Positions 30,820 through 50,752 of a DNA stretch of 64,000 bases are shown here, piece by piece. Position 1 is the stretch's first letter; every line of letters begins with the position of its first letter. This DNA comes from Clostridia bacterium (GTDB lineage: Bacteria > Bacillota > Clostridia > Monoglobales > Monoglobaceae), in NCBI GenBank assembly GCA_045586925.1, contig JAZNBG010000035.1, positions 6,417-70,416 on the forward strand. Reading direction: 5' to 3'. The notes below the pieces were generated by a model. The model did no database searches, had not been told where the DNA came from, and saw only the letters and a list, made by a program, of their open reading frames with translations. The position numbers and the translations under genes are program-made.

Positions 30820-30847
30820 ATAGTGTAAACAAAAAGAGGTGTTACTA

Positions 30848-32569: not shown

Positions 32570-32589
32570 AAGAGGTGAAAAGACAGAAT

Positions 32590-35500
32590 ATGGGCAAATA
32601 TATAGCATATTTTTACATAGACAATCAATTAATGCAATTTGATCTCGACTTGTTGCTAAATAATTGTGTTGATAATTATTTAGGTGAATCAATTCTTCCG
32701 GTAGGAAGTAAGCAACTATTTCCCATTAAAACAGAGAATAAAAAATATTACCTTTATGGGAATTTTAGCAATTGGAAAATTGTTTGTAACGGAAGTGAAG
32801 TCGGAGAAAAAGTTGAAATATCACATGGAAGTTACATCAATTTTTCATCTAAGAAAAGCTCCTATTCTGTTTTGATATCAGAAACAGCTAACTTTAGTAT
32901 ATATAATAATTGTTTGGAAATTCAAAAAAATCAGAATATCTTTATAGGTAGGGCTCCGGAGAGCAACATTGTAATAGATATTAACGATAGTGTATCAAGA
33001 AAACATGCAGCAATAAGATTAGATGCATCAGGCAATGGCTTTGTTGAGGATTTGTCACGTAAAACAGGTGTTTTCCTAAATGGAAAAAGAATTGTTTCAA
33101 GCGAAATAAAATGTGGGGACATTATTCATATAATGGGTGTGTCTATATGTTTTATGGGGACATTTCTTGTTGTTCCTAAAAATATTGTTACAAACGGGAT
33201 GAAAGAGGTCAAGTCTTTTAATGTTGCGCAGCCAACAGATAAAGAGCTTGAAGATACTTATGCAAGGACACCAAGAATATTAAAGTCATTGGATAGAAAC
33301 AAAATAATTATAGATGCACCTACACAGCCTCAAAAATCCAAACAACAACCTTTTATTCTGGTTGCGGGACCTTCTGCGACAATGGCATTAGGTATGATGG
33401 CTAGTTTTGGAGTAACTTTAGCTAATGCACTGAATGGTGGAAACATATCTTCAACTATTACCGGTGGTGTAATGGTTATAAGTATGTTGTTGGGTTCTTT
33501 AATGTGGCCTTCTTTACTTAGAAATTACACTAAAAGACAAGAAATCGCAAATGAAAAGTATAGAGTAGAGAAATATAAATACTATTTGTCGGAAAAAGAA
33601 GCAGAAATAAGAAAATCCTACGAAAGAAATTGCAGAATATGGAATGAAAATCTTTTGCCAGCACCCGATAAATTGTCTCAAATTGTTTTTGAACGAGGTA
33701 TAAATCTTTGGGAAAGAACATTTACAGATGAGGACTTTCTGCAGGTTAGACTTGGAATAGGTGCCAAATTATTTGAAACAGAAATCCAACATCCAAATAA
33801 AGGCTTTACATTGCATGATGACGCATTGATAGATGAAGCAATAAACTTAGCAAACAAATATAAAATGTTAGAAAATGTTCCAATTAGCGTATCATTAATA
33901 AACCAAAGAACAGTTGGAATAGTTGGAGAAAGTGAAAAAATACATAATACACTTAGATGTATGATTCTAAACACGGTTGCACTTCACTCACCTGAGGATG
34001 TAAAGATTTGTGTTATTTGTAATGAACTTCAAATTGAGCAGGTAGAGTGGATAAAAGATTTGCCTCATTGTTGGGATTCTGCTAAAACAACACGATATTT
34101 TGCAACTAATAATATGGAAGCACAAAGACTGCTCAATGATATGGATGAGAAAATTCAAGAAAGAGAAGAATTGATTGACAAAGATGCAATCAGAACCCCT
34201 CATACCATAGTTGTTGTTTTGGATGAAAAAGTAGTTGAAAATATACCTTTTTATAGATACTTAATTGATTCCAAAAACAATGTAGGCATATCCTCTATTT
34301 TTATTGCAGAACACTTTAATAGAATACCTAAAGAGTGTACTGCAATAATTCAAAACGAAAAAGATATATGCGGAATTTATACAAAGAATGAAAACGATAA
34401 TAGATTTGTTTGTTTCAAATCTGATGAGTTTAAACTGACGGATGCTAAAAAAATCAGTCAGAGTATGTCTGAGATTCCGGTTAAGGTTGAGAAAACAAAA
34501 CTTAGTGTTCCTAACCGTGTATCATTTTTGGATATGTATAAGGTGGGAAATATTGAGAATCTTTCAATTGAACAAAAATGGGCAAATAATATGTCAGACA
34601 AAACGCTTGCTGTTCCTATTGGAATAAAAGCAGGCGGAGAATTGTTCTGTTTGGATATACACGAAAAACACCATGGTTGTCACGGATTAGTTGCCGGAAT
34701 GACAGGCTCGGGTAAAAGTGAATTTTTACAGGCATTTATATTATCAGCATTAATTAATTTTAGTCCTAATGAAATTGCATTTGTACTGGTGGACTTTAAA
34801 GGTGGAGATATGGCTCGACCATTTTTGAAGGTTCCGCATCTTTCTGCAACTATATCAAATCTATCCGAAAATATTTTGTATAGAGCATTGATTTCTTTGG
34901 AGGCAGAAGTAAAATCAAGACAAAAAATATTTAATGAAGCCGCATCATTGTTGGGCATTGATAAAATTGATATTAATTCATACCATAAATATTTTAAGGA
35001 AGGTAGATTAACATTACCATTACCACACTTAGTAATTGTAATAGATGAGTTTGCACAATTGAAATCTCAACAACCTGAATTCATGGCTAAACTTGTTGAA
35101 ATAGCTCAGGTCGGAAGAAGTTTAGGAATTCATCTGATATTAGCAACGCAAAAACCGAGCGGTGTTGTTGATCCGCAAATATGGAGCAACTCAAGATTTA
35201 AAGTATGTTTGAAAGTGTTGGATAAGCAGGATAGTACGGAAATGATAAACAGACCGGATGCTGCTTTAATTAAATCTCCTGGACGTGCTTATGTTCAGGT
35301 CGGCTATGATGAAATTTTCGAACAGTTACAGTCAGGTTATAGCGGTGCTGATTATGTTGAACAAAAAGAGTATACAGATGATGAAGATGTAACAATAAAA
35401 CTTATAGATTCTGCTGCTATGCCAATTAGAAGCGCTCGTAGTATATCAGGAAATCTTAAGAGTGGTAAGACACAGTTAGAAGAAACTATAAATAAGATTG

Positions 35501-37239
35501 TTGAAATCGCTGATGAAAAGGGATTAAGTGTAAAGCCTTTGTGGTTGGAGCCACTAAAGGAAACAATATATCTTACAGAATGTGTTGATAAGTTATACAC
35601 AGATTCTTTCGAAATTTGTTGGGATCAAGATTTAGATATCTCAACTACATTGGGAATCATCGATATAATTGAAACACAGAAACAGATACCTTTAAATATT
35701 TCATTGCCGCAGAGCGGACATATTGCTATTTATGGTTCTTCTGGAACTGGAAAGACTACATTGTTACAAACAATTATTTTCTCGCTGGCAACAAAATATT
35801 CACCGGAACTGTTAAACATTTTTGCTTTTGATTTTGGCGGACGCAATTTAGGGAATTTATCGCTTCTTCCGCATTGCGTTAACGTAGCTTTTGGCGATGA
35901 AGAGGACAAAATTTCATATATGTTTGAGCAGATACTTGAATGTATCGAATCAAGAAAAGTTTTGTTTGCAAAAAATAACTGCGCTACATATGAATCGTAT
36001 TTAGCAACAACAAAAAATAAACTTCCTGCAGTTCTTTTGGTGCTGGATAACTATGCTATATTCAGAGAAAAAATGTTCAAGAATGAAGATGATTTAGTTA
36101 GAATTGTTGCTAATGCAAAGGCGTACGGAATATATTTGATCGTTACAGGAAATAGCAAGAATGCAATTTATTACAAAGTTTCTGAACACATATCAAATAA
36201 TATTACTTTGCGTATGAATGATAAAATGAATTACCGTGATATATTAAATGTTTCTATACCTATTGAACCTGATAATATCAAAGGAAGAGGGTTGACAGTC
36301 TTTAATAAAAAAGCGGTAGAAATTCAGGCAGCACTTCCGTTGGAAGCAGAGAACGAGGCTGACAGAGCTGAAAAGCTGAACAAAATATACACTGCTATGT
36401 CACAGGCATATAACGGAACCAATGTGGCTAGTGTTTACTCTTCTTCAACTGAAAATAGTAAATCTAATATTTCAGAAGAAAATAGTACAATTAAAACATC
36501 TGTTATTTCAACAAGGAAAGTTCCGTCAACACTTCCTATTGTTAATGCTGATGATCATACAATTGTTTGTGGTTCTTCTGTTGTAAGCGGTCAGCTTCAA
36601 GGGTTTGAAATGCGTAATACTACAAATGTATTTATAGGTGTTAATGGTTCTGAATATCCAAATCGATTGCTTGAAAGAATTATTAATTTAAACAATGCTG
36701 CATTTTACGATATTTGCTCCTCATCATCGTTAGAAGGTGAATTTATTACATCGGTAAATACGGAATCTGAAATTCATGAAATGCTTCAAAATCTCGTTTA
36801 TGAAGTTAATGATCGAGAGAGTGAACTTCAAATGTTGCAGGCTGCGAATGTCGATGATTCTGAAGTATACGGATATATGCAAAAATATAAGAGGATTTTC
36901 TTGTTGATAAGAAGTTTCTCTAAGTTCTATGATGAGATAAGTGATGATGATTTAAAATTGTTGTTGACAATGTTGAAGAAGCAACGTCATCTAGGTATAT
37001 ATATTCTCACCATAGATGATATTGAAAGTATAGAACCATATTGTGATACAGCTTTATACATTGAATTAATAAAAACCGAAAAAGGCGTTGTTCTTGGTGG
37101 CAATATTAGTGATAAACAGGCGGCTCGATTGTGTAAACAATTCTCTGAAATACCTGTTGCAGAAAGAAACAAGAAACTGTCTGATAACAATGCATTTATG
37201 TATAATGATGCAAAATGGTCAGTAATTGAAATCAATTAA
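32590..37239 (+). CDS. essC: FHA-domain FtsK/SpoIIIE-family ATPase, EssC/EccC-like type VII secretion translocase
   Basis: FHA motif IGRAPESNIVI..SVSRKHAAI..TGVFLNGKRI, then two TM helices. P-loop 1 is GMTGSGKSE with VIDEF. P-loop 2 is GSSGTGKTT with LVLDNY. A third ATPase-like region lacks a P-loop lysine. ATG 32590 was chosen; GTG 32575 is an alternative. Confidence 0.85.
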   Translation: MGKYIAYFYIDNQLMQFDLDLLLNNCVDNYLGESILPVGSKQLFPIKTENKKYYLYGNFSNWKIVCNGSEVGEKVEISHGSYINFSSKKSSYSVLISETANFSIYNNCLEIQKNQNIFIGRAPESNIVIDINDSVSRKHAAIRLDASGNGFVEDLSRKTGVFLNGKRIVSSEIKCGDIIHIMGVSICFMGTFLVVPKNIVTNGMKEVKSFNVAQPTDKELEDTYARTPRILKSLDRNKIIIDAPTQPQKSKQQPFILVAGPSATMALGMMASFGVTLANALNGGNISSTITGGVMVISMLLGSLMWPSLLRNYTKRQEIANEKYRVEKYKYYLSEKEAEIRKSYERNCRIWNENLLPAPDKLSQIVFERGINLWERTFTDEDFLQVRLGIGAKLFETEIQHPNKGFTLHDDALIDEAINLANKYKMLENVPISVSLINQRTVGIVGESEKIHNTLRCMILNTVALHSPEDVKICVICNELQIEQVEWIKDLPHCWDSAKTTRYFATNNMEAQRLLNDMDEKIQEREELIDKDAIRTPHTIVVVLDEKVVENIPFYRYLIDSKNNVGISSIFIAEHFNRIPKECTAIIQNEKDICGIYTKNENDNRFVCFKSDEFKLTDAKKISQSMSEIPVKVEKTKLSVPNRVSFLDMYKVGNIENLSIEQKWANNMSDKTLAVPIGIKAGGELFCLDIHEKHHGCHGLVAGMTGSGKSEFLQAFILSALINFSPNEIAFVLVDFKGGDMARPFLKVPHLSATISNLSENILYRALISLEAEVKSRQKIFNEAASLLGIDKIDINSYHKYFKEGRLTLPLPHLVIVIDEFAQLKSQQPEFMAKLVEIAQVGRSLGIHLILATQKPSGVVDPQIWSNSRFKVCLKVLDKQDSTEMINRPDAALIKSPGRAYVQVGYDEIFEQLQSGYSGADYVEQKEYTDDEDVTIKLIDSAAMPIRSARSISGNLKSGKTQLEETINKIVEIADEKGLSVKPLWLEPLKETIYLTECVDKLYTDSFEICWDQDLDISTTLGIIDIIETQKQIPLNISLPQSGHIAIYGSSGTGKTTLLQTIIFSLATKYSPELLNIFAFDFGGRNLGNLSLLPHCVNVAFGDEEDKISYMFEQILECIESRKVLFAKNNCATYESYLATTKNKLPAVLLVLDNYAIFREKMFKNEDDLVRIVANAKAYGIYLIVTGNSKNAIYYKVSEHISNNITLRMNDKMNYRDILNVSIPIEPDNIKGRGLTVFNKKAVEIQAALPLEAENEADRAEKLNKIYTAMSQAYNGTNVASVYSSSTENSKSNISEENSTIKTSVISTRKVPSTLPIVNADDHTIVCGSSVVSGQLQGFEMRNTTNVFIGVNGSEYPNRLLERIINLNNAAFYDICSSSSLEGEFITSVNTESEIHEMLQNLVYEVNDRESELQMLQAANVDDSEVYGYMQKYKRIFLLIRSFSKFYDEISDDDLKLLLTMLKKQRHLGIYILTIDDIESIEPYCDTALYIELIKTEKGVVLGGNISDKQAARLCKQFSEIPVAERNKKLSDNNAFMYNDAKWSVIEIN

Positions 37240-37255
37240 ATAGGAGGTGTATAAT

Positions 37256-38044
37256 ATGAATTTTTCTGACAAATCTTTACATTTAACATATGATGAGTTT
37301 TATGCATTAATGTGTTTGTTAGGTGCAAAAAGTGTTCAAGGAACTTTTGTTGAAAATCATAATAATATATCTCCAAATGATTTCGAGAATATATGGGCAG
37401 TCTGCGAAAAATCACTGATTTCTAAAGGATATATGACATTAGACGGTGAGGATTTGCAGCTGGATATTAGTTTATATAGCATTATAACAGCATGTGTGAA
37501 TGCCGAAAGAAAATATAGTGTACAATTGTCAAAAGATAAATCCAATATTATTGATACAGTTTTTTATGATGGAAATAAGGCAATGGTATGTATCAATAAT
37601 TGTGATGAAAAGAAAGAGGTTTATTTAAGTTATTGCAATAAAAAGAAATCTTTTGATAATGTGGTTAAGGAAATTCCGGATATTACACAAAATATGCTTA
37701 ACGAAAAATCTGCTGAAATTACCCTTTCACAGCAGGAATATTTCACACTCATGTCTAGTGCTAATTTGGGGGACTATACCAAGGCTCGAAATCTATTCCC
37801 TGATGATATGGAAGAAGAATATTTAATGGATTTGATAAACACATTAAAAAATTCTTATGGGTTACTATCGGTTAATGAATTTGAAGATGAGGAAATTAGC
37901 ACTTACAGCATTTTATTTGGAAAAGAATCTTTATGGGCTATTTATGCACAGGATGAAGAAACAATATCCTTTAAATTGGTATCCAAAACTGATTTAGAAG
38001 ATAGCCTCGCGCAAACTTTTGGTTATGACGGAGGTGGCAAATAA
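37256..38044 (+). CDS. Soluble acidic protein of unknown function (possible EspG-like secretion chaperone)
   Basis: No TM segments. The N-terminal LTYDEFYALMCLLGAK loosely recalls the EspG N-terminus. Its position between the essC-like and yukD-like genes is suggestive. ATG 37256 follows AGGAGG. Confidence 0.25.
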   Translation: MNFSDKSLHLTYDEFYALMCLLGAKSVQGTFVENHNNISPNDFENIWAVCEKSLISKGYMTLDGEDLQLDISLYSIITACVNAERKYSVQLSKDKSNIIDTVFYDGNKAMVCINNCDEKKEVYLSYCNKKKSFDNVVKEIPDITQNMLNEKSAEITLSQQEYFTLMSSANLGDYTKARNLFPDDMEEEYLMDLINTLKNSYGLLSVNEFEDEEISTYSILFGKESLWAIYAQDEETISFKLVSKTDLEDSLAQTFGYDGGGK

Positions 38045-38045
38045 A

Positions 38046-38303
38046 ATGACTGAAAAAATTACGTTATCGGTATGTGTACTAGGAATTAATAAAAATTGTG
38101 ATTTTTCTGTTCCGACAAATATGTCAGTTAGAGAAGCAATTAAGTTAATGAAAAAGGTGATAACCGAAGAATATTGGGGTAACTCACCTATGCCAAAGAG
38201 CAGAATGAATTTGATGAAGTTGTCTGATCTTGAGGTATTAAATGATTCATTGAGTTTTGCCCAACTCGGTATTTCAAGTGGAGAAAGATTGATTTTTGTT
38301 TAA
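38046..38303 (+). CDS. YukD/EsaB-like ubiquitin-fold T7SS protein
   Basis: 85 aa. The pattern CDFSVPTNMSVREAIKLM ... LGISSGERLIFV parallels B. subtilis YukD (which ends CGITNGDRLEIL). ATG 38046 follows GGAGG. Confidence 0.65.
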   Translation: MTEKITLSVCVLGINKNCDFSVPTNMSVREAIKLMKKVITEEYWGNSPMPKSRMNLMKLSDLEVLNDSLSFAQLGISSGERLIFV

Positions 38304-38317
38304 GGAGTGTAAAAAAT

Positions 38318-38614
38318 ATGGCAACGTTTAGAATTAACTATTCAAGAGTTATTTCGCAAGCTAACTCTATGAATAATTTAAGTGGCGATCTTTCTTCTGA
38401 AATACGTAGGTTAGAAAATATGTTAAGCGAAGCTCGAAGTAATTGGAAAGGTCCAGCATCAGAAACATTTCAAAGACAATTAAGTAATTTAATAGGAGAT
38501 ATGAAGAACACAAAAAGTAAAATGTCAAGTGTTTCAAGTACAATTAAGAGTGTCGCAAGAAGGATACAAGCAGAAGATGAGCGAGCTGCTGAAAGAGCAA
38601 AAAAACTGAAATAA
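38318..38614 (+). CDS. WXG100-family protein (paralogue 1)
   Basis: 98-aa helical hairpin with a central W-K-G (SNWKGPASETF). Confidence 0.7.
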   Translation: MATFRINYSRVISQANSMNNLSGDLSSEIRRLENMLSEARSNWKGPASETFQRQLSNLIGDMKNTKSKMSSVSSTIKSVARRIQAEDERAAERAKKLK

Positions 38615-38632
38615 GAATTTGGAGGTGGAAAT

Positions 38633-38743
38633 ATGGAAGCTGCGGCTGCAACACCGATTAATTCAGTAGCAAGTACAGTGGTACCTATAGCGGTTGCTGT
38701 GCTTGTTGGAGTGGCAATTTTCGCTTTTTTAAGGCGAAAGTAA
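38633..38743 (+). CDS. 36-aa single-pass membrane peptide (not in the ORF track)
   Basis: ATG 38633 lies 6 nt after GGAGGTGG. It reads MEAAAATPINSVASTVVPIAVAVLVGVAIFAFLRRK: a hydrophobic helix followed by an RRK anchor. Confidence 0.5.
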   Translation: MEAAAATPINSVASTVVPIAVAVLVGVAIFAFLRRK

Positions 38744-38809
38744 AGATTAACTTAGGGTTATAAAATAATTATTATAACAAAATTATTTTTCGAAAGGAGC
38801 AAATTTATT

Positions 38810-39121
38810 ATGGCAAACGCATGGTCAGTAACCACAGAAAGACTTACATCTTCTGCAAACATTTTGGAGGAAAAAGTCGCAACGTACAATTCAGAATGGG
38901 GCAAACTTTACACAGAGGTTCAGAATTTAAAATCCTCACAGTGGCAGGGTATCGCAAGTGATGCATTCAACGCAAAACTTGAGTCCTACAAAAATGATTT
39001 TGAAGAATTAGCAAAAGTATTGAACAGCTATAAAGATTTCTTGAAATCAGCAGCAGAAAGATATGAGAAAACAGAAGAAGCAGTAAAAGATGCAGCTGGA
39101 AATCTTAATGCCGGAATATAA
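38810..39121 (+). CDS. WXG100-family protein (paralogue 2)
   Basis: 103 aa with central W-Q-G (SSQWQGIASDAF) and a C-terminal YEKTE (YxxxE) motif. Confidence 0.8.
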   Translation: MANAWSVTTERLTSSANILEEKVATYNSEWGKLYTEVQNLKSSQWQGIASDAFNAKLESYKNDFEELAKVLNSYKDFLKSAAERYEKTEEAVKDAAGNLNAGI

Positions 39122-39145
39122 ATAAAATTTTAGGAGGATTTTAAA

Positions 39146-39445
39146 ATGGCTACAATTAAAGTTGATTCAACAGTAATGAGAGACAAAGCAGGCACATTTA
39201 AGAATGTTGCTAACACAATAAAAAATTTAACAGATGAAATGACTCAGGAGATAGAAAGTTTACGTTCAGCATGGGAAGGCGAATCCGCTGAAGCAACTGT
39301 ATCAAAATTTAAAAGTTTAGCTTCAACATTTGAAGAAAAGTTCAATACAATTAACCAGTATGCATCTTTCCTTGAGGAAGCAGCTAATGCTTATGACGAT
39401 GCAGAAAAGGCTGTCGCTCAGGGAGCAGAAGGCACACAGGCTTAA
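39146..39445 (+). CDS. esxA: WXG100-family protein, EsxA-like (paralogue 3)
   Basis: 99 aa with central W-E-G (SAWEGESAEA) and a C-terminal YDDAE (YxxxE) motif. Strong AGGAGG RBS. Confidence 0.8.
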   Translation: MATIKVDSTVMRDKAGTFKNVANTIKNLTDEMTQEIESLRSAWEGESAEATVSKFKSLASTFEEKFNTINQYASFLEEAANAYDDAEKAVAQGAEGTQA

Positions 39446-39461
39446 TTTGAAGTTTGATAAA

Positions 39462-39506
39462 CACAGAGGCATATAAAATGCATATCTGAAATTATATGTC
39501 TCTGTG
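39462..39506 (+). promoter_or_regulatory. Intercistronic 15-bp stem-loop after the esxA-like gene
   Basis: CACAGAGGCATATAA / TTATATGTCTCTGTG (one G-U pair) with a 15-nt loop and no T-run. It is flanked by GAAGTTTGA direct repeats. Confidence 0.5.
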
Positions 39507-39531
39507 AAGTTTGAATTAAGGAGGTGTAAAG

Positions 39532-40791
39532 GTGCCTTACATAAAAGTTGACACAAGGAGATTATCCAACTTTGGAAATGTTGCATCTTCTACAAGAGGT
39601 AGAGTTGGTAATATAAAATCTTCATTTTCCTCTATTGGGAGTTCTCTTGATTGGGATGTAAAGGCTTGTTCTGGTATCAATAGGACAATAAGCCAAATTA
39701 ACAACGAACTTTCAGCAGAGATGTCGAGTTTAAGGAGAATTGAAACTTTTTTTGATTTGGCAGTTAGGAAATATAATGACGCCGAAAAATCCAAAGAAAA
39801 ACTATCAAAAATTCCTCAAACGAGAAGGGTAGCTACTCTTGGTCCAGGAGGTAGAATGAATAATACAACTAAAAATGTTGCATTATTATCTGTTTATAAA
39901 AATAACAAAGCCAGTATAACATCCCAGGTAAAAGTGAAAGAAAATTCCGAATGGACAAAACTTCTCAAGAAAATAGCAAAAAAAGCAGGTTTCGCTGGCT
40001 CCATTTACGGAATTTTAAGTGGAGAATCTGAAACCATTCAACATATAAAAGATGGAGAATATGCAAAAGCGATGCAGAGCTTTGCTGGAGTGGCGAAAGG
40101 TGTAATTAAAACTGTTCCAAAGATATTTGATAAATATGGAAAGATGAAAAAAGCATCCCATTTATTGACCCCTATGCAGAAATTAAAAAATTGGGGGAAA
40201 TCAATAGTTGGATTAGATGATATGATAAAAGCACCTTCAAAAGCTTCAAAAGTAACATCAAGAATCTATAATAATATGCAAAAGTTAGATATAAAAAAAC
40301 TTGGCAAGGTTACGAAGTGTGATGTTATTATAAGTAGCATTGTAAGTATTATTGGTAATGCCTCTGAATATATGGAAGGCAAGATAAGCGCTGCGAGAGC
40401 GGCAGCTGAAACCATTGGAGAAACTGTAATAGAAATTGGAAAAACCGCACTACTGTATAAAGTAGTTGGTGTTGCTGCAACTGCTGTAGCAAGTGCTGCA
40501 GGCATAGCTGCTGTTCCTGCAATTGCAGTAGCCGGTGCTGTAGTTGTGATTAGTTGGGGCATTGATAAGTTGACAGAAAAACTAACAGGAAAAAATTTCA
40601 CTGAATGGTTATCTGATGGAATAATTGATGTTGCTTCATACGTCGGCAAGTCAGTGAAACAGGTTGCAAATACTGTAGTTCCAGCAATTCGTAATACCTG
40701 TACCAATGTTATAAACAAGGCTGGTGAATTCTTCGGAAACGTAAAAAATGGCGTGAATAATTTCTTTGGAAAATTAAGATTTGCATTTTAA
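39532..40791 (+). CDS. Putative T7SS substrate: N-terminal WXG100/LXG-like helical domain fused to a C-terminal Gly/Ala-rich membrane-active region
   Basis: The N-terminal ~85 aa form a helical hairpin with the turn LDWDVKA and YNDAE (YxxxE). The C-terminus has AAETIGETV..LLYKVVGVAATAVASAAGIAAVPAIAVAGAVVVISWGI, a glycine-zipper-like hydrophobic hairpin. GTG start after AAGGAGG. Confidence 0.5.
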   Translation: MPYIKVDTRRLSNFGNVASSTRGRVGNIKSSFSSIGSSLDWDVKACSGINRTISQINNELSAEMSSLRRIETFFDLAVRKYNDAEKSKEKLSKIPQTRRVATLGPGGRMNNTTKNVALLSVYKNNKASITSQVKVKENSEWTKLLKKIAKKAGFAGSIYGILSGESETIQHIKDGEYAKAMQSFAGVAKGVIKTVPKIFDKYGKMKKASHLLTPMQKLKNWGKSIVGLDDMIKAPSKASKVTSRIYNNMQKLDIKKLGKVTKCDVIISSIVSIIGNASEYMEGKISAARAAAETIGETVIEIGKTALLYKVVGVAATAVASAAGIAAVPAIAVAGAVVVISWGIDKLTEKLTGKNFTEWLSDGIIDVASYVGKSVKQVANTVVPAIRNTCTNVINKAGEFFGNVKNGVNNFFGKLRFAF

Positions 40792-40809
40792 AAAAAGGAG
40801 TGAATTTAA

Positions 40810-41079
40810 ATGATTAAAGATTTATTGCCGGTTGGTAGTGTAGTTTTACTTAAAGGTGGCATAAAAAAGTTAGTTATTATGGGGATTAAGCAGGCTAACG
40901 CTGAAGAACCTGATGTTGAATATGACTATGCAGGAGTAATGTATCCAGAAGGATATTTGGGAAATGATACCCTTTACCTTTTTAACCACGCTGATATAAA
41001 TGATATTATTTTTACTGGATATACCAATCCTGAACGTGATGAGTTTTTATTAGAAGTAGAAAAATTATACAATGATTAA
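40810..41079 (+). CDS. DUF4176-like small protein (family commonly encoded in Firmicute T7SS loci)
   Basis: The opening LLPVGSVVLLKGGIKKLVIMG and the size (89 aa) fit DUF4176 as I recall it. Confidence 0.55.
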   Translation: MIKDLLPVGSVVLLKGGIKKLVIMGIKQANAEEPDVEYDYAGVMYPEGYLGNDTLYLFNHADINDIIFTGYTNPERDEFLLEVEKLYND

Positions 41080-41863
41080 TGCAGTTGCTTTTTCAAATGT
41101 TGGGAATATCAGGAGTAACCACGAAGACAATTATTTACTTGGCGTTGGCAACCACATTGACGAAGTGATACAGAGGCAAATGAGAAATAATCTCTACATG
41201 CAGAAATCCACCTATACGGGTGATGCAGGTGTATTTGCAGTTTGTGATGGTATGGGTGGACATGCTTCTGGAGAGGTTGCAAGTTATGCAGCTATTTGCT
41301 GGTTAAACAATAAAGCTAATTTATTGCTGAATTCTCAACCTACAGAAATAATCAGTTGCATAACAGAATTGAATTCACATATATGTAATGAAGCTGATAA
41401 ATCCTCATGTTGTAACAACATGGGAAGTACTTTAAGTGCAATGATAATCAATGGCAGAAGTATTCATACCATTAATGCCGGAGATAGCCGTATATATTCC
41501 TTTAAAAATGATAAATTATCACAGATAACTACAGACCACACTGAGGGACAGCGATTATTGGACCTTGGATTACTTACAATGAATGAGTTGCCAGAATTTT
41601 CGTCACGAAAATCGTTATATAAGTACTTGGGACGAAAGGGAGAATTGATAGCTGATGTAGTAGATATTAGTGGTAGTGATGGGTTGTATATGATCTGCAG
41701 TGACGGCCTTACGGATGCACTTAATGATTGCGAAATTGAGGGAATATTTTTAAAACGTGATTCAATTTCGGATATCGGACAAGAGCTAATGGATTCTGCT
41801 TTAGCGAAAGGAAATTTATGTGCTGATAATGTGACGTTATTATTAGTTGAAATATCTTACTGA
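41072..41863 (+). CDS. PP2C-family Ser/Thr protein phosphatase
   Basis: AVCDGMGGHASGEVAS, GDSRIY and ICSDGLTD metal-binding motifs. Overlaps the upstream gene by 8 nt. Confidence 0.85.
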   Translation: MINAVAFSNVGNIRSNHEDNYLLGVGNHIDEVIQRQMRNNLYMQKSTYTGDAGVFAVCDGMGGHASGEVASYAAICWLNNKANLLLNSQPTEIISCITELNSHICNEADKSSCCNNMGSTLSAMIINGRSIHTINAGDSRIYSFKNDKLSQITTDHTEGQRLLDLGLLTMNELPEFSSRKSLYKYLGRKGELIADVVDISGSDGLYMICSDGLTDALNDCEIEGIFLKRDSISDIGQELMDSALAKGNLCADNVTLLLVEISY

Positions 41864-43653
41864 TGAAAGAAGGGATAAATTTGATAGGAAAAACCATTTT
41901 AGGTTATACCATTGAGGAAGAAATTGGTTCGGGTGGTTTTGGAACAGTTTATAAGGCTTATAAAAGGGACGAATCCGGAACATTTATTAGAGCAATTAAA
42001 CATATATCCCTTCCTACAAAAAAACAATACAACGATGTACTAAATTCAATGGGTGGAGATTATGCTAAGGCAGATAACTATTTCAATGATATATTGAACG
42101 ATCTCGTCAGCGAAATAAAGATATTATATAATCTTACAGAGCAAGGAGTTCTAAACGTTGTAAGATATACTGATCACCACATTGAGAAACAACAGAACCC
42201 TATCAAATATGATATATACCTTTCTATGGAATATCTAACACCATTTGACGAATATATCCAAACAAGCAAACTTGCGGTTAGGGATGTTATAAAATTAGGA
42301 AAGGATATTTCAGCTGCACTTATCGCTTGCCATAAGAATACCATTATGCATCGAGATATTAAAGATGAAAACATCTTTGTATCTAACGATGGCACATATA
42401 AATTAGGAGATTTTGGGGTTTCAAAAAAAATGCAAGACAGCTCAAGGGCTGAAAGTATGAAAGGTACACCTAATTATATCGCACCTGAAGTGTATTTAGG
42501 AAAAGGCAAATATGATTGCACTGTCGATATATACTCATTGGGGATTGTATTATACAAGCTTCTCAACTATAATCGTAATCCGTTTTTGCCTGAATATCCG
42601 TTGGAATACAATAGTGTAGATGAAGATAAAGCTTTTGAAATGCGTATGAAAGGAGATACGCCTCCTGCTCCGCTTAATGCAAACAATAAACTTGGCGAAG
42701 TAATTTTGAAAGCTATAAGCATTAGAGAAAATCGCTATAACGATGCAGCCGAGCTATATGAATGCTTAAATGAAATCGAAAAAAGCTTAACAAACGAGGA
42801 ACTTAATAAGGTTGTTATATCTCCAATAAAGAATATTGTTGATAAAAAGCCTGAACCTACACCACAGATTCAGAGTGACAAAAATTTAAAAGAAACTATT
42901 GGTGAAGATTATAATGTAACCAATCAGGAAGAAAAAGAGACAGGAAATGGCGCTCTTTTTGAAACTCATGGAGATGATTATACTCCTCCGGTAATAAAAA
43001 GAGAAGAGTCCCAAACAGAATCTATAGTAACAAAGGACGAAGAAGCAGAAGATTGCATAGAAGATGTTGAACAGGAAAAGCCATTAGTGAAAACAAAAAC
43101 AAGAAAGAAAACTTTGCTATATGTCGGCATGGTTTTGGCTGTATTTGTAGCATTGCTTGGATTTAAAATAGCAAACAATATAATGTCAAAAGATAATTGG
43201 ACCGGATTTAGTCATGTATATAATGTTACTGCTGAAGGAAAATATGCAGACGGAAAAAGCGAAGATGAAACAGGAGAAAAATTTGAAATAGATTCAGAGA
43301 CAATTAAAATGGCTTTGGAAGATAATATTCCTAAAAAATTGCCATTAGATCAAGAATATAACTTTGAATTTACAATATATTCACCTGATATGCCAGAGAG
43401 CATAATGGTTTTAGCCGGTAAAGGTGGCGGATATGTTAATTTCGAATATATATCTTGTGCAGAGGAAACAAGCAAGGCATATATAAAATTTCCGTGGGAG
43501 TTTCAAAGTAACCTTAATGGAGAAACTCTGTATTCCCCAGGAGAGAAAATTAGATTTAGAATTGTGGTAGAATACAGAACGAAAAACGATGATGGTTCTA
43601 CTCGTTATGAGAAAATCTATCTTGATAAAACAGCTTTAACATTAACAAAATAA
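41863..43653 (+). CDS. Hanks-type Ser/Thr protein kinase 1 (single TM, extracytoplasmic C-terminal domain)
   Basis: GSGGFGTVYKA, AIKHI, HRDIKDENIF, GDFGVS and YIAPEV. TM segment LLYVGMVLAVFVALLGF. TGATG overlap with the phosphatase gene. Confidence 0.9.
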   Translation: MKEGINLIGKTILGYTIEEEIGSGGFGTVYKAYKRDESGTFIRAIKHISLPTKKQYNDVLNSMGGDYAKADNYFNDILNDLVSEIKILYNLTEQGVLNVVRYTDHHIEKQQNPIKYDIYLSMEYLTPFDEYIQTSKLAVRDVIKLGKDISAALIACHKNTIMHRDIKDENIFVSNDGTYKLGDFGVSKKMQDSSRAESMKGTPNYIAPEVYLGKGKYDCTVDIYSLGIVLYKLLNYNRNPFLPEYPLEYNSVDEDKAFEMRMKGDTPPAPLNANNKLGEVILKAISIRENRYNDAAELYECLNEIEKSLTNEELNKVVISPIKNIVDKKPEPTPQIQSDKNLKETIGEDYNVTNQEEKETGNGALFETHGDDYTPPVIKREESQTESIVTKDEEAEDCIEDVEQEKPLVKTKTRKKTLLYVGMVLAVFVALLGFKIANNIMSKDNWTGFSHVYNVTAEGKYADGKSEDETGEKFEIDSETIKMALEDNIPKKLPLDQEYNFEFTIYSPDMPESIMVLAGKGGGYVNFEYISCAEETSKAYIKFPWEFQSNLNGETLYSPGEKIRFRIVVEYRTKNDDGSTRYEKIYLDKTALTLTK

Positions 43654-43698
43654 AAGCAATATGTTGATAATTTTGAAATTAAGAAAGAAGGGATAAAG

Positions 43699-45585
43699 TT
43701 GATAGGACAAACAATTTTGGGATATACAATCGAAGAAGAAATAGGTTCAGGTGGCTTTGGCACAGTATATAAAGCGAGAAAAAGTAACCAATCAGGAACT
43801 TATGTGCGTGCAATTAAACATATATCCCTTCCTACAAAAAAACAATACAATGATGTTTTGAACTCAATGGGTGGAGATTATTCGAAGGCGGACGATTATT
43901 TTTCGGATATCCTAAAAGATATTGTTGGAGAAATTCAAATATTAAATAACCTTACTGAACAAGGTGTTCGTAACGTTGTTTGGTATTATGAAAATCAAAT
44001 AGATGAGTGCCAATCTCCACTAAGGTATGACATATATATTTTAATGGAATATCTAACCCCGTTTGATGAATACATACAAGTAAATGAATTTACGGTGAGA
44101 GATGTAATAAAACTAGGTAAAGATATTGCAACAGCACTTGTTGCTTGTCATAAAAATAATGTTATACATCGTGATATTAAAGATGAAAATATATTTGTTG
44201 CAAACGACGGAACATATAAATTAGGTGATTTTGGAGTATCAAAGAAACTTCAAGACCGTTCCCGGGCTGAAAGTATGAAAGGTACACCAAATTACATTGC
44301 ACCAGAGGTATATTTGGGTAGAGGAACCTACGATAATACTGTAGATATATATTCACTTGGGATAGTGTTATATAAATTACTTAATTATAATCGTAATCCA
44401 TTTATGCCTAAATATCCTGAACCATTCAACAGCAATGATGAAGATGTTGCCTTTGAAAACAGAATGAAGGAATTAACACCAGAACTTCCTCAAAATGCTG
44501 AAAACAGTCTTGGTAACATCATTTTGAAGGCTATTGGAAAGCGTGATGAACGTTATGATTCAGCAACAGATTTTTTAGATATTCTTATGGAAACTGAAAA
44601 AAGCTTAACAAACGAGGAATTGAACAAGGTTATAATCACACCTGTAGCAAACGATAAACAGCAAACAGCAGGAACAGTGAATAAAGAAAGTAATATTCCT
44701 CTGAAAGAAACAATTGGTGAGAATTATGAGGTTACGTCAAATGTTGTTAAGGGACAAGGAAATGGGAATCTTTTTGAAACTCAAGGCGAAAAATATGTTC
44801 CACCAGTATTGCCGGATGAGCCAAAAAGGATAATTCATGAAGCAAAAGCGGAGCCTCCTAAAATAGAAACACCCAAAGAAGAAAAATATGAATATGATTA
44901 TGCTCCAAAAGGTCCTCGTACTGCACCACCAGAAGAACCGCATGTTGAACCTATTCAAAAAGGAAGTTTTGATTGGTTATTATATGCTACACCTTTTGTG
45001 ATTTTATTGGTATATATCGTATTGTTTTTCGTGTTACTACCAAAAGCTTATGATAACACAGTATCATTTATAGATTGGGCAATTAAAAATCCGCAGGATT
45101 TGCTTGAAGCGATGAAATCGTCTGATAATGTATTGCCGCCAATATATAAGGTTATTTTCCTTAAATTATTAAATATAGCGTTGTTTTCAGGGTTGGTTAT
45201 ATCGTTATATTTCATCGGAAGAAAACTTCATTTTTCTAAACCAAATTATGCATCCAATGCAACATTGATAGACAAAGAAGCTTACTATTTGTCCTTGGAA
45301 ATATACGAAGAATTAAAGGCTGAATCTATACCCAATACGTCAGATATTATATCTTCTGTAAAAGTAGTACATGACAGATTGAAAAATGATAGCTCTTTTG
45401 GTATAGGAAATCAAAGTGTGATTCGTTGCGAACAGGAAATTGAGTCACTATTAAGAGTTGTTCAGTCAAATATTGCAGGTTTGAAAAATGATAGTACATT
45501 TTCTGGCTCAAAACAGACTATACTAACTTCCTGCAACAGAATAATGGCAAAAATCAAAATGAGAACAGAGTTAAAAAAGAGATAA
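43699..45585 (+). CDS. Hanks-type Ser/Thr protein kinase 2 (paralogue; different multi-TM C-terminal half)
   Basis: The kinase domain is nearly colinear with kinase 1 (same G-loop, HRDIKDENIF, DFG, APE). The C-terminus has two or more TM segments and a distinct tail. TTG start within a duplicated GAAAGAAGGGATAAA leader. Confidence 0.9.
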   Translation: MIGQTILGYTIEEEIGSGGFGTVYKARKSNQSGTYVRAIKHISLPTKKQYNDVLNSMGGDYSKADDYFSDILKDIVGEIQILNNLTEQGVRNVVWYYENQIDECQSPLRYDIYILMEYLTPFDEYIQVNEFTVRDVIKLGKDIATALVACHKNNVIHRDIKDENIFVANDGTYKLGDFGVSKKLQDRSRAESMKGTPNYIAPEVYLGRGTYDNTVDIYSLGIVLYKLLNYNRNPFMPKYPEPFNSNDEDVAFENRMKELTPELPQNAENSLGNIILKAIGKRDERYDSATDFLDILMETEKSLTNEELNKVIITPVANDKQQTAGTVNKESNIPLKETIGENYEVTSNVVKGQGNGNLFETQGEKYVPPVLPDEPKRIIHEAKAEPPKIETPKEEKYEYDYAPKGPRTAPPEEPHVEPIQKGSFDWLLYATPFVILLVYIVLFFVLLPKAYDNTVSFIDWAIKNPQDLLEAMKSSDNVLPPIYKVIFLKLLNIALFSGLVISLYFIGRKLHFSKPNYASNATLIDKEAYYLSLEIYEELKAESIPNTSDIISSVKVVHDRLKNDSSFGIGNQSVIRCEQEIESLLRVVQSNIAGLKNDSTFSGSKQTILTSCNRIMAKIKMRTELKKR

Positions 45586-47422: not shown

Positions 47423-47431
47423 AGGTGTGGA

Positions 47432-48445: not shown

Positions 48446-48518
48446 GCTTAAAACGCAACTTGACAAAAAATTAGTTCTGACAACAAAACAAAATATATAA
48501 AACAAAGGAGAATAAATT

Positions 48519-49976: not shown

Positions 49977-50060
49977 TAAAGAATTATTTTAATGTTAACT
50001 ACTGTGTAATGCCACTACATAGATGTTATATACAAACAACACAAAAGGAGATGTTTAAAC

Positions 50061-50720: not shown

Positions 50721-50752
50721 TTAGTTATAGCGTGCACGCTAAAGGTAATTAT

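What the first reader, a model, noticed from the sequence alone, without database searches (positions are those of the whole stretch)
32590..45585. FHA-bearing translocase co-transcribed with a PP2C phosphatase and two Ser/Thr kinases
Seen in sequence:
- The EssC-like FHA domain keeps the canonical phosphothreonine-binding residues: Gly-Arg in FIGRAP, Ser-x-x-His in SVSRKHA, and Asn-Gly in FLNGKRI.
- Nine genes downstream, translationally coupled (8-nt and 1-nt overlaps), lie a PP2C phosphatase with intact metal motifs and two Hanks kinases with complete G-loop, VAIK-type Lys, HRD, DFG and APE motifs.
- The kinase domains are tandem paralogues with long stretches of identical nucleotides, including a duplicated leader GAAAGAAGGGATAAA-TTGATAGGA.
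- Their sensor halves differ. Kinase 1 has one TM plus a ~160-aa external domain. Kinase 2 has a multi-TM region plus a cytoplasmic tail.

Established analogy: the PpkA/PppA/Fha1 threonine-phosphorylation switch of the P. aeruginosa H1-T6SS.

Inference: secretion by this T7SS-like machine may be gated post-translationally by two different signals.
Basis: partly seen in the sequence, partly recalled or inferred. Interest (0 to 1): 0.6.

Follow-up and report, generated by a model that had tools for sequence, protein, structure and literature searches.

The report
Kinase-controlled type VII secretion island
This is a type VII protein-secretion gene cluster on a mobile island of a gut Clostridia bacterium; its motor ATPase carries a phosphothreonine-reader (FHA) domain and is always encoded with its own kinase and phosphatase, an arrangement already proposed for related systems in 2024.

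Summary
Window 31.4-46.2 kb is one same-strand T7SS cluster: SPFH/zinc-ribbon protein, EssC-class ATPase with tandem FHA domains, YukD-like protein, three WXG100 proteins, a 419-aa Gly/Ala-zipper protein, DUF4176, an intact PP2C, two intact Hanks kinases and a TPR protein.

Corrections:
The peptide-contacting Asn of the S/T-x-N-G loop is Thr here and is never Asn in 120 relatives.
- Kinase 1 probably starts at TTG 41881, not at the ATG that overlaps the PP2C stop.
- The paralogues share 77% of nucleotides; the longest exact run is 41 nt.

Ten of ten related loci with enough sequence (42-98% EssC identity, gut Clostridia to Paenibacillus and Cytobacillus) encode a PP2C and a kinase beside this EssC type. 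The conserved kinase is kinase 2. Kinase 1, with an orphan Ig-like ectodomain, occurs only in 98%-identical relatives.

The kinases' variable linker holds two conserved Thr motifs, candidate FHA docking sites.

The phospho-gating idea and the T6SS analogy were published by Garrett et al. 2024 for T7SSd/e/j. This lineage's gene set matches none of their subtypes. Gating itself is untested.

The parts
30839..31417 (+). TetR-family regulator at the head of the cluster. Found only in close relatives.
   Evidence: Pfam TetR_N E 1.9e-8. Present in L001 and L006/L007 at 90-98% identity and absent from distant loci. A promoter-like site lies at 30685-30713, a consensus match only.
31433..32569 (+). 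SPFH (Band_7_1) protein with three C-terminal zinc ribbons, 5 nt upstream of essC. Conserved partner of this EssC lineage.
   Evidence: Pfam Band_7_1 E 3e-44, with Zn_Ribbon_1 and DZR. Present next to or near EssC in L001, L002, L004-L008 and L010-L016 at 53-99% identity; not seen in L009.
32575..37239 (+). EssC-class FtsK/SpoIIIE translocase: tandem FHA domains, two TM helices and P-loop ATPase domains.
   Evidence: NCBIfam TIGR03928 1019.8 bits against cut-off 778. Pfam FtsK_SpoIIIE and FHA. Walker A GMTGSGKS at 708-715 and GSSGTGKT at 1054-1061. More than 200 full-length homologues.
32596..32889 (+). FHA1-like degenerate beta-sandwich (EssC residues about 8-105).
   Evidence: Not detected by Pfam. 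AF2 model with pLDDT above 90 in this stretch. The whole N-terminus aligns over 217-245 columns with the tandem FHA domains of B. subtilis YukB (9qks_H), Geobacillus EssC (5fwh) and S. aureus EssC (1wv3).
32902..33189 (+). FHA2 (EssC residues about 110-205), with near-canonical pThr-binding residues: G125, R126, S141, R142, H144, N169, G170. The canonical loop Asn is T164.
   Evidence: Pfam FHA E 1.4e-15. The best PDB sequence hits are pThr-binding FHA domains, not EssC FHA domains. Conservation over 120 relatives: G and R 100%, S/R/K 98%, H 74%, N169 100%.
37247..38044 (+). 265-aa soluble protein of unknown function. Lineage-restricted.
   Evidence: No Pfam, NCBIfam or PADLOC family. tblastn finds homologues in L001, L002, L006-L009 at 28-96% identity. 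271-aa genes occupy the same position in L012 and L014.
38019..38303 (+). Probable YukD/EsaB-like ubiquitin-fold protein.
   Evidence: Pfam YukD E 3e-4, 21.9 bits, below the gathering score of 27. Same position in all related loci; marked 'YukD (weak)' in L004 and L013.
38318..38614 (+). WXG100 protein 1.
   Evidence: Pfam WXG100 47.4 bits (gathering score 27.3). TIGR03930 48.1 bits against cut-off 44.85.
38633..38743 (+). 36-aa single-TM small ORF with its own Shine-Dalgarno (GGAGGUGG), in the gap between WXG100-1 and WXG100-2.
   Evidence: Read from the sequence. The same 36-aa gene is called in L006-L008. Distant loci have no room for it.
38810..39121 (+). WXG100 protein 2.
   Evidence: Pfam WXG100 52.5 bits.
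39146..39445 (+). WXG100 protein 3.
   Evidence: Pfam WXG100 53.8 bits.
39532..40791 (+). 419-aa protein with a Gly/Ala-rich hydrophobic hairpin (residues 307-344). Conserved position. Candidate membrane-active substrate or machine component.
   Evidence: No family hit. Hydropathy. Homologues at 27-99% identity in the same position in L001, L002, L006-L013.
40810..41079 (+). DUF4176 protein, a family reported to stabilise an LXG toxin.
   Evidence: Pfam DUF4176 E 1.5e-24. Present in all loci with enough sequence. Role taken from the title of PMC12482557.
41072..41863 (+). PP2C/PPM Ser/Thr phosphatase with intact metal-binding motifs.
   Evidence: Pfam PP2C. PDB hits tPphA, Stp, PstP and PppA at E 1e-23 to 1e-17. 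Motifs listed.
41863..43653 (+). Kinase 1 (probable start TTG 41881): Hanks kinase, linker, one TM, about 160-aa Ig-like ectodomain. Lineage-specific paralogue.
43699..45585 (+). Kinase 2: Hanks kinase, linker, two-TM hairpin, about 130-aa cytoplasmic tail. The conserved kinase of the lineage.
   Evidence: Pfam Pkinase E 5.9e-43. TMs at 427-445 and 478-496. The kinase domain and the C-terminal domain are conserved in L001, L006, L011-L014. Kinases of the same size follow the PP2C in L015 and L016.
42892..42966 (+). K1 linker motifs ETIGE (42892-42906) and LFET (42955-42966): candidate phospho-acceptor and FHA docking sites.
   Evidence: Thr and Gly of ETIG are invariant, and L-F-x-T/S is conserved, in 9 kinases whose linkers are otherwise 16-26% identical in the distant loci.
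44707..44781 (+). K2 linker motifs ETIGE (44707-44721; T338) and LFET (44770-44781; T361).
45603..46196 (+). 197-aa zinc-ribbon plus TPR protein. Conserved member of the cassette.
   Evidence: Pfam TPR families. Present at 39-97% identity in L001, L006, L011-L014, either after the kinase or beside the SPFH gene.
46229..51294 (+). Variable or accessory tail: two membrane-anchored class-A beta-lactamase-like proteins (46229-47422, 47432-48445), a zinc-ribbon four-TM protein (48519-49976), a 219-aa protein (50061-50720) and a two-TM YidD-domain protein (50764-51294).
   Evidence: Pfam. Hydropathy. The 219-aa and YidD-like genes recur in L011, L012 and L014. The beta-lactamase-like genes are only 34-39% identical even in the 90-98% EssC relatives.

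Best explanation
The region is a complete type VII secretion cluster of an apparently unclassified lineage, carried on a roughly 35 kb low-GC integrated element.

Gene set: SPFH/zinc-ribbon protein, EssC with tandem FHA domains, a YukD-like protein, three WXG100 proteins, a Gly/Ala-zipper protein, DUF4176 and a TPR protein. A dedicated Hanks kinase and PP2C phosphatase are built-in parts of the system.

Proposed mechanism (inferred):
1. The membrane-anchored kinase (K2 type) takes the place that the EssB pseudokinase holds in T7SSb.
2. It autophosphorylates, or is phosphorylated, on conserved Thr residues in its disordered juxtamembrane linker (ETIG and LFET motifs).
3. FHA2 of EssC, which keeps the phosphate-binding Arg and Ser, docks on these pThr sites. 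Docking promotes assembly or activation of the EssC motor.
4. The PP2C removes the mark and switches the machine off.

In this strain and its 98% relatives a second paralogue, K1, keeps the same catalytic residues and the same two linker motifs but carries a single TM and an Ig-like ectodomain. It would add an extracellular input to the same reader.

Shown here: gene content, intact catalytic and reader residues, the tandem-FHA fold, and the conserved linkage. Inferred: phosphorylation, which sites are used, FHA docking, and any effect on secretion.
For: Identity of the proteins:
- EssC is established by NCBIfam above its cut-off and by a tandem-FHA fold match to solved EssC/YukB structures.
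- Three WXG100 proteins score above the Pfam gathering score.
- The kinase and PP2C motifs are intact.

Linkage:
- A PP2C and a kinase lie next to this EssC type in all ten related loci with enough sequence.
- In nine they sit directly or nearly directly after DUF4176 (L001, L006-L008, L011, L012, L013, L014, L015, L016).
- In L009 a PP2C and a PASTA kinase lie directly upstream of EssC.
- The tblastn matrix shows that the K2 kinase domain and its C-terminal domain are orthologous across the lineage.

Reader domain:
- G125 and R126 are 100% conserved; S141, R142 and K143 are 98% conserved over 120 relatives.
- FHA2 is closer in sequence to pThr-binding FHA domains (ArnA, CT664, Rv1747) than to EssC FHA domains.

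Candidate docking sites:
- The kinase linkers are only 16-26% identical in the distant loci, yet the Thr and Gly of ETIG are invariant in 9 of 9 kinases and LFx(T/S) is conserved in 9 of 9, K1 included.

Context:
- No EssB, EsaA or EssA homologue was found in the cluster.
- Garrett et al. found GR/SxxH/NG conserved in TsxC exactly in the subtypes that have a kinase (Table S1).
- A 2026 preprint shows experimentally that kinase/phosphatase/FHA pathways control Esx in Actinomycetales (PMC13622651).
Against: - There is no direct evidence of phosphorylation or pThr binding.
- The peptide-contacting Asn of the canonical S/T-x-N-G loop is Thr here and is absent from the whole family.
- His144 is only 74% conserved.
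- In T7SSb the EssC FHA domains bind the EssB pseudokinase, presumably without phosphorylation (PMC11217815). A kinase-fold/FHA contact therefore need not be phospho-dependent.
- The conserved linker motifs could instead bind the TPR protein, the PP2C or something else.
- L009 lacks the K2-type kinase.
- K2 has only about a 32-aa external loop, so what it senses is unclear.
Confidence: 0.55

Rival explanations
1. The kinase and PP2C regulate the system, but not through the EssC FHA domain. They would phosphorylate substrates, chaperones or a transcription factor (for example the TetR protein at the head of this cluster). The FHA domains would act only as phospho-independent assembly modules, as in T7SSb.
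For: - IreK-dependent transcriptional activation of T7SSb in E. faecalis, as cited in PMC11217815.
- The Esr1 pathway of Actinomycetales acts on transcription.
- A TetR gene heads the cluster in close relatives.
- The canonical loop Asn is missing from FHA2.
- The EssC FHA-EssB contact in T7SSb is phospho-independent.
Against: - The TetR gene is absent from the distant loci that still keep the PP2C and kinase.
- The phosphate-binding Arg and Ser of FHA2 are 98-100% conserved under this linkage, whereas TsbC has lost them (Table S1).
- The kinase linker carries conserved Thr motifs.
Confidence: 0.22
2. The kinase is mainly a structural core subunit, an EssB substitute that happens to keep its catalytic residues. 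Phosphorylation would be incidental, so there is no switch.
For: - The topology is EssB-like: a cytoplasmic kinase fold plus a TM.
- No EssB is present in the cluster.
- Garrett et al. note the same parallel for TscD.
Against: - All catalytic motifs are intact in both paralogues and in the orthologues.
- A PP2C is present in 10 of 10 loci, which would have no purpose without phosphorylation.
Confidence: 0.1
3. The kinase/PP2C pair is an unrelated signalling or defence module that merely travels on the same mobile island. It could be a cell-envelope stress or anti-phage kinase, such as one related to MADS or PD-T4-6.
For: - The island carries defence genes: an N6-methylase with an S subunit, and a KwaB-like gene.
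- PADLOC gives domain-level hits of the kinases to mad6 and PD-T4-6, and of the EssC ATPase to mad8 and SspH.
Against: - The pair keeps the same position inside the T7SS cassette in loci whose flanks are entirely different, both chromosomal and mobile contexts.
- NCBIfam MAD6 scores 110 bits against a cut-off of 460.
- No non-catalytic protein of the cluster hits PADLOC.
Confidence: 0.05

Closest known systems
T7SSe, T7SSj and T7SSd of Garrett, Higginson & Palmer 2024 (microLife 5:uqae013; PMC11217815)
   Same: [quoted passage not shown]
- A membrane Ser/Thr kinase (TsxD) and a PPM phosphatase (TsxF).
- A YukD-like TsxB and more than one WXG100 protein.
- Zinc-ribbon/TM proteins resembling TseK.
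- The authors already propose control by threonine phosphorylation and draw the T6SS analogy.
   Different: - No Ig-like giant TsxI, no DUF6382-FHA TsxJ and no TseH were found in the window or in 10-kb flanks of the relatives.
- This lineage has an SPFH/zinc-ribbon protein, a separate TPR protein, DUF4176 and three WXG100 proteins. [quoted passage not shown]
- The kinase has a two-TM hairpin and a cytoplasmic tail rather than one TM and an external domain.
- The EssC N-terminal 600 aa is only 26-30% identical to each of their representatives.
- Five RefSeq accessions of this lineage are absent from their lists.
T7SSb (S. aureus Ess, B. subtilis Yuk)
   Same: - An EssC-class ATPase (TIGR03928 above its cut-off).
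- The tandem-FHA fold of the N-terminus.
- YukD/EsaB-like and WXG100 proteins, and DUF4176.
   Different: - No EssA, EssB or EsaA.
- FHA2 keeps the pThr-binding Arg and Ser, which TsbC lacks (0% in Table S1).
- An active kinase stands where the EssB pseudokinase would be.
- Canonical EssC proteins align only from residue about 221 onwards, at about 33% identity.
Threonine-phosphorylation pathway of the T6SS (P. aeruginosa PpkA/PppA/Fha1; A. tumefaciens PpkA-TssL-Fha)
   Same: The logic is the same: a membrane Hanks kinase, a PP2C phosphatase and an FHA reader are encoded inside a secretion cluster. The PP2C here matches PppA (6jkv) at E 2.4e-17. The Agrobacterium case is cited in PMC11217815.
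   Different: - The machine is unrelated.
- The FHA reader is fused to the motor ATPase rather than being a separate Fha protein.
- From my own knowledge, PpkA carries a periplasmic vWA domain, which is not present here.
- This is an analogy of function, not membership.
Esr threat-sensing pathways linked to Esx in Actinomycetales (bioRxiv 2026; PMC13622651)
   Same: A kinase/phosphatase pair changes the Thr phosphorylation of an FHA-domain output protein and controls Esx/T7SS, with experimental support.
   Different: - Those pathways use MoxR, vWA and beta-propeller sensors, and a separate FHA protein (EsrG).
- The demonstrated output is mainly transcriptional.
- They are in a different phylum, and the T7SS is an EccC type.
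Mycobacterial PknB/PstP with FHA proteins (FhaA, GarA, Rv1747) (from my own knowledge)
   Same: FHA domains dock on pThr sites in disordered linkers created by a membrane Hanks kinase, and a PP2C reverses the mark. FHA2 here is close in sequence and structure to the Rv1747, FhaA and GarA FHA domains.
   Different: Those proteins act in cell-wall and metabolic regulation, not in a secretion ATPase.

Membership tests
Type VII secretion system (general: EssC/EccC ATPase plus WXG100) | Membrane FtsK/SpoIIIE ATPase of the EssC/EccC class | tested here: met
   NCBIfam TIGR03928 1019.8 bits against cut-off 778.4. Pfam FtsK_SpoIIIE E 5e-61.
Type VII secretion system (general: EssC/EccC ATPase plus WXG100) | WXG100-family protein(s) in the cluster | tested here: met
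   Three genes with Pfam WXG100 at 47-54 bits (gathering score 27.3). TIGR03930 is above its cut-off for the first.
Type VII secretion system (general: EssC/EccC ATPase plus WXG100) | YukD/EsaB ubiquitin-like protein (present in most subtypes) | tested here: inconclusive
   Pfam YukD 21.9 bits, below the gathering score of 27. Position and size are conserved in the relatives.
T7SSb | EssB pseudokinase, EsaA and EssA membrane components | tested here: not met
   No Pfam hit to YukC/EssB, EsaA or EssA in any ORF from 28 to 51 kb.
T7SSb | Tandem N-terminal FHA domains on EssC | tested here: met
   AF2 model with pLDDT 88. Top Foldseek hits are 9qks_H, 5fwh and 1wv3 over 217-245 columns.
T7SSe (Garrett et al. 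2024) | TseC with FHA motifs GR, SxxH and NG, plus a TseD kinase and a TseF PPM phosphatase | tested here: met
T7SSe (Garrett et al. 2024) | TseI (large Ig-like protein with signal peptide and C-terminal TM) and TseJ (DUF6382 plus FHA), said to be encoded at all T7SSe loci | tested here: not met
   No DUF6382, second FHA protein or Ig-like giant in the window or in the flanks of L006 and L010-L016. Only L009 has an Ig-like gene fragment upstream.
T7SSe (Garrett et al. 2024) | TseC-clade membership of the ATPase | tested here: inconclusive
   30% identity to the TseC representative, rebuilt from machine-read text of their Fig. S2. This is no closer than to TsiC, TsjC or TsfC. No phylogeny was run.
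T7SSj (Garrett et al. 2024) | TsjD kinase with a C-terminal TPR domain; TsjI, TsjJ and TsjK | tested here: not met
   The kinases have no TPR; a separate 197-aa TPR protein follows them. No TsjI or TsjJ equivalents were found.
Canonical pThr-binding FHA domain | Gly-Arg, Ser-x-x-His, and the Asn of the S/T-x-N-G loop (Rad53 G69, R70, S85, H88, N107; numbering from my own knowledge) | tested here: inconclusive
   GR and SRKH are present. The loop Asn is replaced by Thr164. The FLNG motif aligns with the second NG.
Canonical pThr-binding FHA domain | Binding of phosphothreonine peptides | not testable with these tools
   Needs ITC, fluorescence polarisation or pull-down with the isolated domain.
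Hanks-type Ser/Thr kinase | G-loop, beta3 Lys, alphaC Glu, HRD...N, DFG, APE | tested here: met
   Both paralogues. Pfam Pkinase E 1e-42. Best PDB match is the S. aureus PknB kinase domain 4eqm.
PP2C/PPM phosphatase | Metal-binding Asp motifs (RxxxED, DGxGG, DG(L/V)(T/W)D, DN) | tested here: met
T6SS threonine-phosphorylation pathway (PpkA/PppA/Fha1) | Association with T6SS core genes and a stand-alone Fha protein | tested here: not met
   No T6SS families among the Pfam hits of the region. The FHA domain is fused to EssC. This is a functional analogy only.
MADS anti-phage system | Mad6 kinase and Mad8 ATPase at equivalog level | tested here: not met
   NCBIfam MAD6 109.8 bits against cut-off 460. 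The PADLOC mad6 and mad8 hits cover only the generic kinase and FtsK domains.

The most novel reading that the evidence does not exclude
This would be a widespread, mobile and so far unclassified T7SS lineage in which an active membrane Hanks kinase has replaced the EssB pseudokinase as the FHA-docking core subunit. Assembly of the secretion motor would then itself depend on phosphorylation, with an SPFH scaffold and a TPR protein as further lineage-specific parts. In this strain two paralogous kinases with different sensor halves would compete for, or cooperate on, the same FHA reader through shared pThr linker motifs. That would make it a natural two-input gate on a secretion machine.
Probability: 0.3. 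Interest if true: 0.7.

Novelty: new variant of a known kind. Interest (0 to 1): 0.45.

Why it matters
T7SS of Bacillota deliver antibacterial toxins and shape gut communities, but how the machines are switched on after translation is largely unknown.

This lineage is common in gut metagenomes; some EssC clusters hold more than 1000 member sequences. It also occurs in cultivable Paenibacillus and Cytobacillus.

The phospho-gating hypothesis of Garrett et al. therefore becomes directly testable by point mutation.

It would also show whether EssB-type pseudokinases descend from, or were replaced by, active kinases.

The concept itself is not new, so the gain is a good test case and probably one more T7SS subtype, not a new principle.

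Tried and rejected
1. Searching with the N-terminal 662 aa of EssC gave only 18 hits and suggested a rare protein. That was an artefact of the word index; the full-length search found more than 200 full-length relatives.
2. I considered the conserved R-T-P-R-I motif before TM1 (EssC T232) as a phospho-site. I rejected it as kinase-specific because R-[ST]-P-R-[IF] occurs in all TsxC representatives, including those that have neither FHA domains nor kinases.
3. The MADS/PD-T4-6 defence reading of the kinases and the FtsK domain was rejected.
4. The plasmid collection has no near DNA match, and canonical EssC proteins there align only from residue about 221.
5. I looked up five RefSeq accessions of this lineage, and the words SPFH, Band and DUF4176, in the Garrett supplements. 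None was found. Two of the files were cut when stored, so this is weak negative evidence.
6. The AlphaFold-database fold library was not available.
8. The terminator and promoter scans do not differ from shuffled sequence.

Full report
**What is there**

ORF listing and Pfam/NCBIfam scans show one uninterrupted + strand gene array.

| Coordinates | Gene product |
|---|---|
| 30839-31417 | TetR regulator |
| 31433-32569 | SPFH (Band_7_1) protein with three zinc ribbons |
| 32575-37239 | 1554-aa FtsK/SpoIIIE protein; passes NCBI's EssC equivalog model (TIGR03928, 1019.8 bits, cut-off 778) |
| 37247-38044 | 265-aa protein of unknown function |
| 38019-38303 | Weak YukD-like protein |
| 38318-38614, 38810-39121, 39146-39445 | Three WXG100 proteins |
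| 39532-40791 | 419-aa protein with a Gly/Ala-rich hydrophobic hairpin |
| 40810-41079 | DUF4176 |
| 41072-41863 | PP2C |
| 41863/41881-43653 | Hanks kinase K1 |
| 43699-45585 | Hanks kinase K2 |
| 45603-46196 | Zinc-ribbon/TPR protein |
| 46229-51294 | Accessory membrane proteins |

No EssA, EssB or EsaA is present. No + strand terminator-like site lies between 30.5 and 49.4 kb, but the scan does not differ from shuffled sequence. Co-transcription is therefore plausible, not shown.

The cluster sits in a low-GC stretch (about 0.33 against 0.43) from about 20 to 52-56 kb. The stretch also holds recombinases, an N6-methylase with an S subunit and a KwaB-like gene, and ends at a large serine recombinase gene (53898-55580). 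It lies between chromosomal genes of a spore-former: spoIIP, an SLH protein and malQ on one side, mutS on the other. It is an integrated mobile element.

The FHA motifs FIGR, SRKHA and FLNG are at EssC residues 123-126, 141-145 and 167-170.

HMMER alignments to solved pThr-binding FHA domains (ArnA 5a8i, CT664 3gqs, Rv1747 6cah, Vps64 6a8w) pair the query's R-K-T-G with their S-x-N-G. They pair the query's L-N-G with their second NG. The peptide-contacting Asn (Rad53 N107, from my own knowledge of Durocher et al. 2000) is therefore Thr164.

Across 120 full-length relatives:
- G125 and R126 are 100% conserved.
- S141, R142 and K143 are 98% conserved.
- H144 is 74% conserved (Cys or Thr otherwise).
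- N169 is 100% conserved.
- Position 164 is T, V or I and never N.

By that published criterion the domain is 'conserved'. By the structural five-residue criterion it is four of five.

An AlphaFold2 model of residues 1-252, built on 29 sequences, has pLDDT 88 and pTM 0.78 and shows two beta-sandwiches. Foldseek ranks the B. subtilis T7b core unit (9qks_H), Geobacillus EssC FHA (5fwh) and S. aureus EssC N-terminus (1wv3) first, over 217-245 columns. Single pThr-binding FHA domains follow. So the N-terminus has the EssC tandem-FHA architecture: FHA1 is degenerate and FHA2 has a canonical-type sequence.

The PP2C metal motifs and all Hanks motifs are intact.

The 8-nt overlap is real. The 1-nt overlap depends on the ATG at 41863. 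The duplicated leader contains a Shine-Dalgarno (AAGAAGGGA) followed by TTG, which is the only possible start of K2 and thus the likely start of K1.

The paralogues are 77% identical over 738 nt, with exact runs of 41, 25 and 24 nt. Their kinase domains are 75% identical at the protein level.

K1 has one TM and about 160 external residues. K2 has two TMs, about a 32-aa loop and about a 130-aa cytoplasmic tail.

**Is the linkage more than chance?**

A full-length EssC search returned more than 200 relatives at 41-98% identity. All have a Pfam FHA domain and nearly all cover the full query length. I read the genomic context of eleven lineages.

| Locus | Source, EssC identity | Kinase/phosphatase arrangement |
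|---|---|---|
| L006-L008 | 98% | The window's cluster, with both kinases |
| L001 | Hadza gut MAG, uncultured Clostridia, 90% | One kinase, the orthologue of K2 |
| L009 | 58% | PP2C and a PASTA kinase directly upstream of EssC |
| L010/L011 | 49% | PP2C then one 618-640-aa kinase after DUF4176 |
| L012 | 45% | Same |
| L013 | 46% | Same |
| L014 | Paenibacillus aurantiacus, 42% | Same |
| L015 | Cytobacillus firmus, 42% | Same |
| L016 | 42% | Same |

L010/L011 and L012-L016 all read SPFH ... EssC, YukD-like, three WXG100, a 324-430-aa protein, DUF4176, PP2C and then the kinase. Their flanks are entirely different from one another. L002 and L004/L005 end before that point.

So ten of ten informative loci, counting the window, carry the pair.

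A tblastn matrix shows these proteins to be conserved in the cassette: SPFH, EssC, YukD-like, the three WXG100, the 419-aa family, DUF4176, PP2C, the K2 kinase domain and its C-terminal domain, and the TPR protein. K1's ectodomain occurs only in the 98% relatives.

**The kinases**

Nine kinases were aligned. The juxtamembrane linker is 16-26% identical between distant lineages.
- In an '(E/L/A)-T-(I/V/L)-G' motif, the Thr and Gly are invariant in 9 of 9 (K2 T338).
- An 'L-F-x-(T/S)' motif is conserved in 9 of 9 (K2 T361).
- K1 keeps both motifs.

Short conserved Thr motifs in a disordered linker next to a kinase domain are what FHA docking sites look like in the mycobacterial PknB system (my own knowledge). 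I propose them as the phospho-ligands of FHA2. This is inference.

**Comparison with what is known**

Garrett, Higginson & Palmer (2024; PMC11217815) described T7SSc-j. They reported membrane kinases (TsxD), PPM phosphatases (TsxF) and FHA proteins in these clusters. They showed that GR, SxxH and NG are conserved in TsxC in the subtypes that have a kinase (TsdC, TseC, TsjC) and lost in TsbC. They proposed control by threonine phosphorylation, citing the T6SS precedent. A 2026 preprint adds experimental evidence in Actinomycetales.

This lineage does not fit their subtype definitions.
- T7SSe and T7SSj require an Ig-like giant TsxI and a DUF6382-FHA TsxJ. Neither was found here or in the relatives' flanks.
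- SPFH and DUF4176 are not mentioned in the paper or its held supplements. A TPR appears there only as the C-terminal domain of the TsjD kinase.
- I rebuilt their Fig. S2 representatives from machine-read text. The window's EssC N-terminal 600 aa is 26-30% identical to TsiC, TseC, TsjC, TsfC and TsdC alike.
- Five RefSeq accessions of this lineage are not in their lists.
- I found no paper linking SPFH to EssC and no later subtype scheme.

I therefore file it as a new variant of a known kind. No phylogeny was run, and two of the supplement files were truncated when stored.

**Mechanism and rivals**

The best-supported reading (confidence about 0.55) is a reader-writer-eraser switch on the motor itself. 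The kinase stands in for the EssB pseudokinase, pThr in its linker recruits or activates EssC through FHA2, and the PP2C resets the switch.

| Rival | Confidence |
|---|---|
| Regulation through other targets or transcription, with a phospho-independent FHA | 0.22 |
| A purely structural kinase | 0.10 |
| An unrelated module travelling on the same island | 0.05 |

Three observations keep the first rival alive: the missing loop Asn, the variable His144, and the phospho-independent FHA-EssB precedent in T7SSb.

The 'two signals' idea applies only to this strain and its close relatives. K2's signal is unlikely to be extracellular.

**Verdict**

What this work adds:
- a probably unclassified, widespread, mobile T7SS lineage;
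- named candidate phospho-sites;
- a natural two-kinase variant.

Noticed in passing
window 38633-38743 (+): A 36-aa ORF (MEAAAATPINSVASTVVPIAVAVLVGVAIFAFLRRK) with its own Shine-Dalgarno lies in the 195-nt gap between WXG100-1 and WXG100-2. It looks like a single-pass membrane peptide. It is also called as a gene in L006-L008, and distant loci have no room for it.
   Followed up: partly
window 31433-32569; L001, L002, L004-L008, L010-L016: An SPFH (Band_7_1) protein with two or three zinc ribbons is encoded next to or near this EssC type in every related locus except L009. No paper in the library links SPFH with EssC. From my own knowledge, flotillin is reported to scaffold T7SS assembly in S. 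aureus.
   Followed up: partly
window 21242-27585: The same low-GC island carries an ATPase_2/DUF234 protein, an N6-adenine methylase of Eco57I/MmeI type with a type I S-subunit-like gene, and a TM protein followed by a KwaB-like protein (a possible Kiwa defence pair).
   Followed up: no
window 28234-30477 and 52675-55580; L006, L010: A resolvase, YpsA (SLOG) and tyrosine recombinase trio precedes the T7SS cassette here and in L006 and L010. A second tyrosine recombinase and a large serine recombinase close the low-GC region. The T7SS cassette appears to travel on integrative elements. L006 also has a RepA_N gene.
   Followed up: partly
window 46229-48445: Two membrane-anchored class-A beta-lactamase-like (Beta-lactamase2) proteins, the first with an N-terminal zinc ribbon, follow the TPR gene. 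In relatives with 90-98% identical EssC the corresponding gene is only 34-39% identical, so this is a variable cargo region.
   Followed up: no
window 39532-41079: The 419-aa protein has an N-terminal region that looks helical (judged from the sequence only) and a Gly/Ala-zipper hydrophobic hairpin (residues 307-344). It is always followed by DUF4176, a family reported to stabilise an LXG toxin. It may be a conserved membrane-active substrate or a core pore component.
   Followed up: partly
L004 3454-8087; L005 2155-6431: In one sub-lineage EssC is split into two genes: a 366-aa FHA-TM part and an ATPase part of 1164 aa in L004 (its L005 counterpart is called at 1045 aa). The split was seen on four contigs.
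   Followed up: no
L009 2-3400: In the 58%-identity relative, the PP2C and a PASTA-domain kinase lie directly upstream of EssC, preceded by the end of an Ig-like (Big_2/fn3) protein. This recalls TseI of T7SSe. No SPFH, TPR or K2-type kinase is on that 17.6 kb contig.
   Followed up: partly
window 50764-51294; L011 15380-15862; L012 9060-9578: A YidD (membrane-protein insertion efficiency factor) domain fused to an N-terminal part with two TMs recurs in the cassette.
   Followed up: no
P0142, P0145 (relatives of the K1 ectodomain): Proteins sharing K1's orphan ectodomain carry a repeated 'EKTVSxF(D)' Thr-containing motif in their cytoplasmic linker. This may be another docking motif.
   Followed up: no
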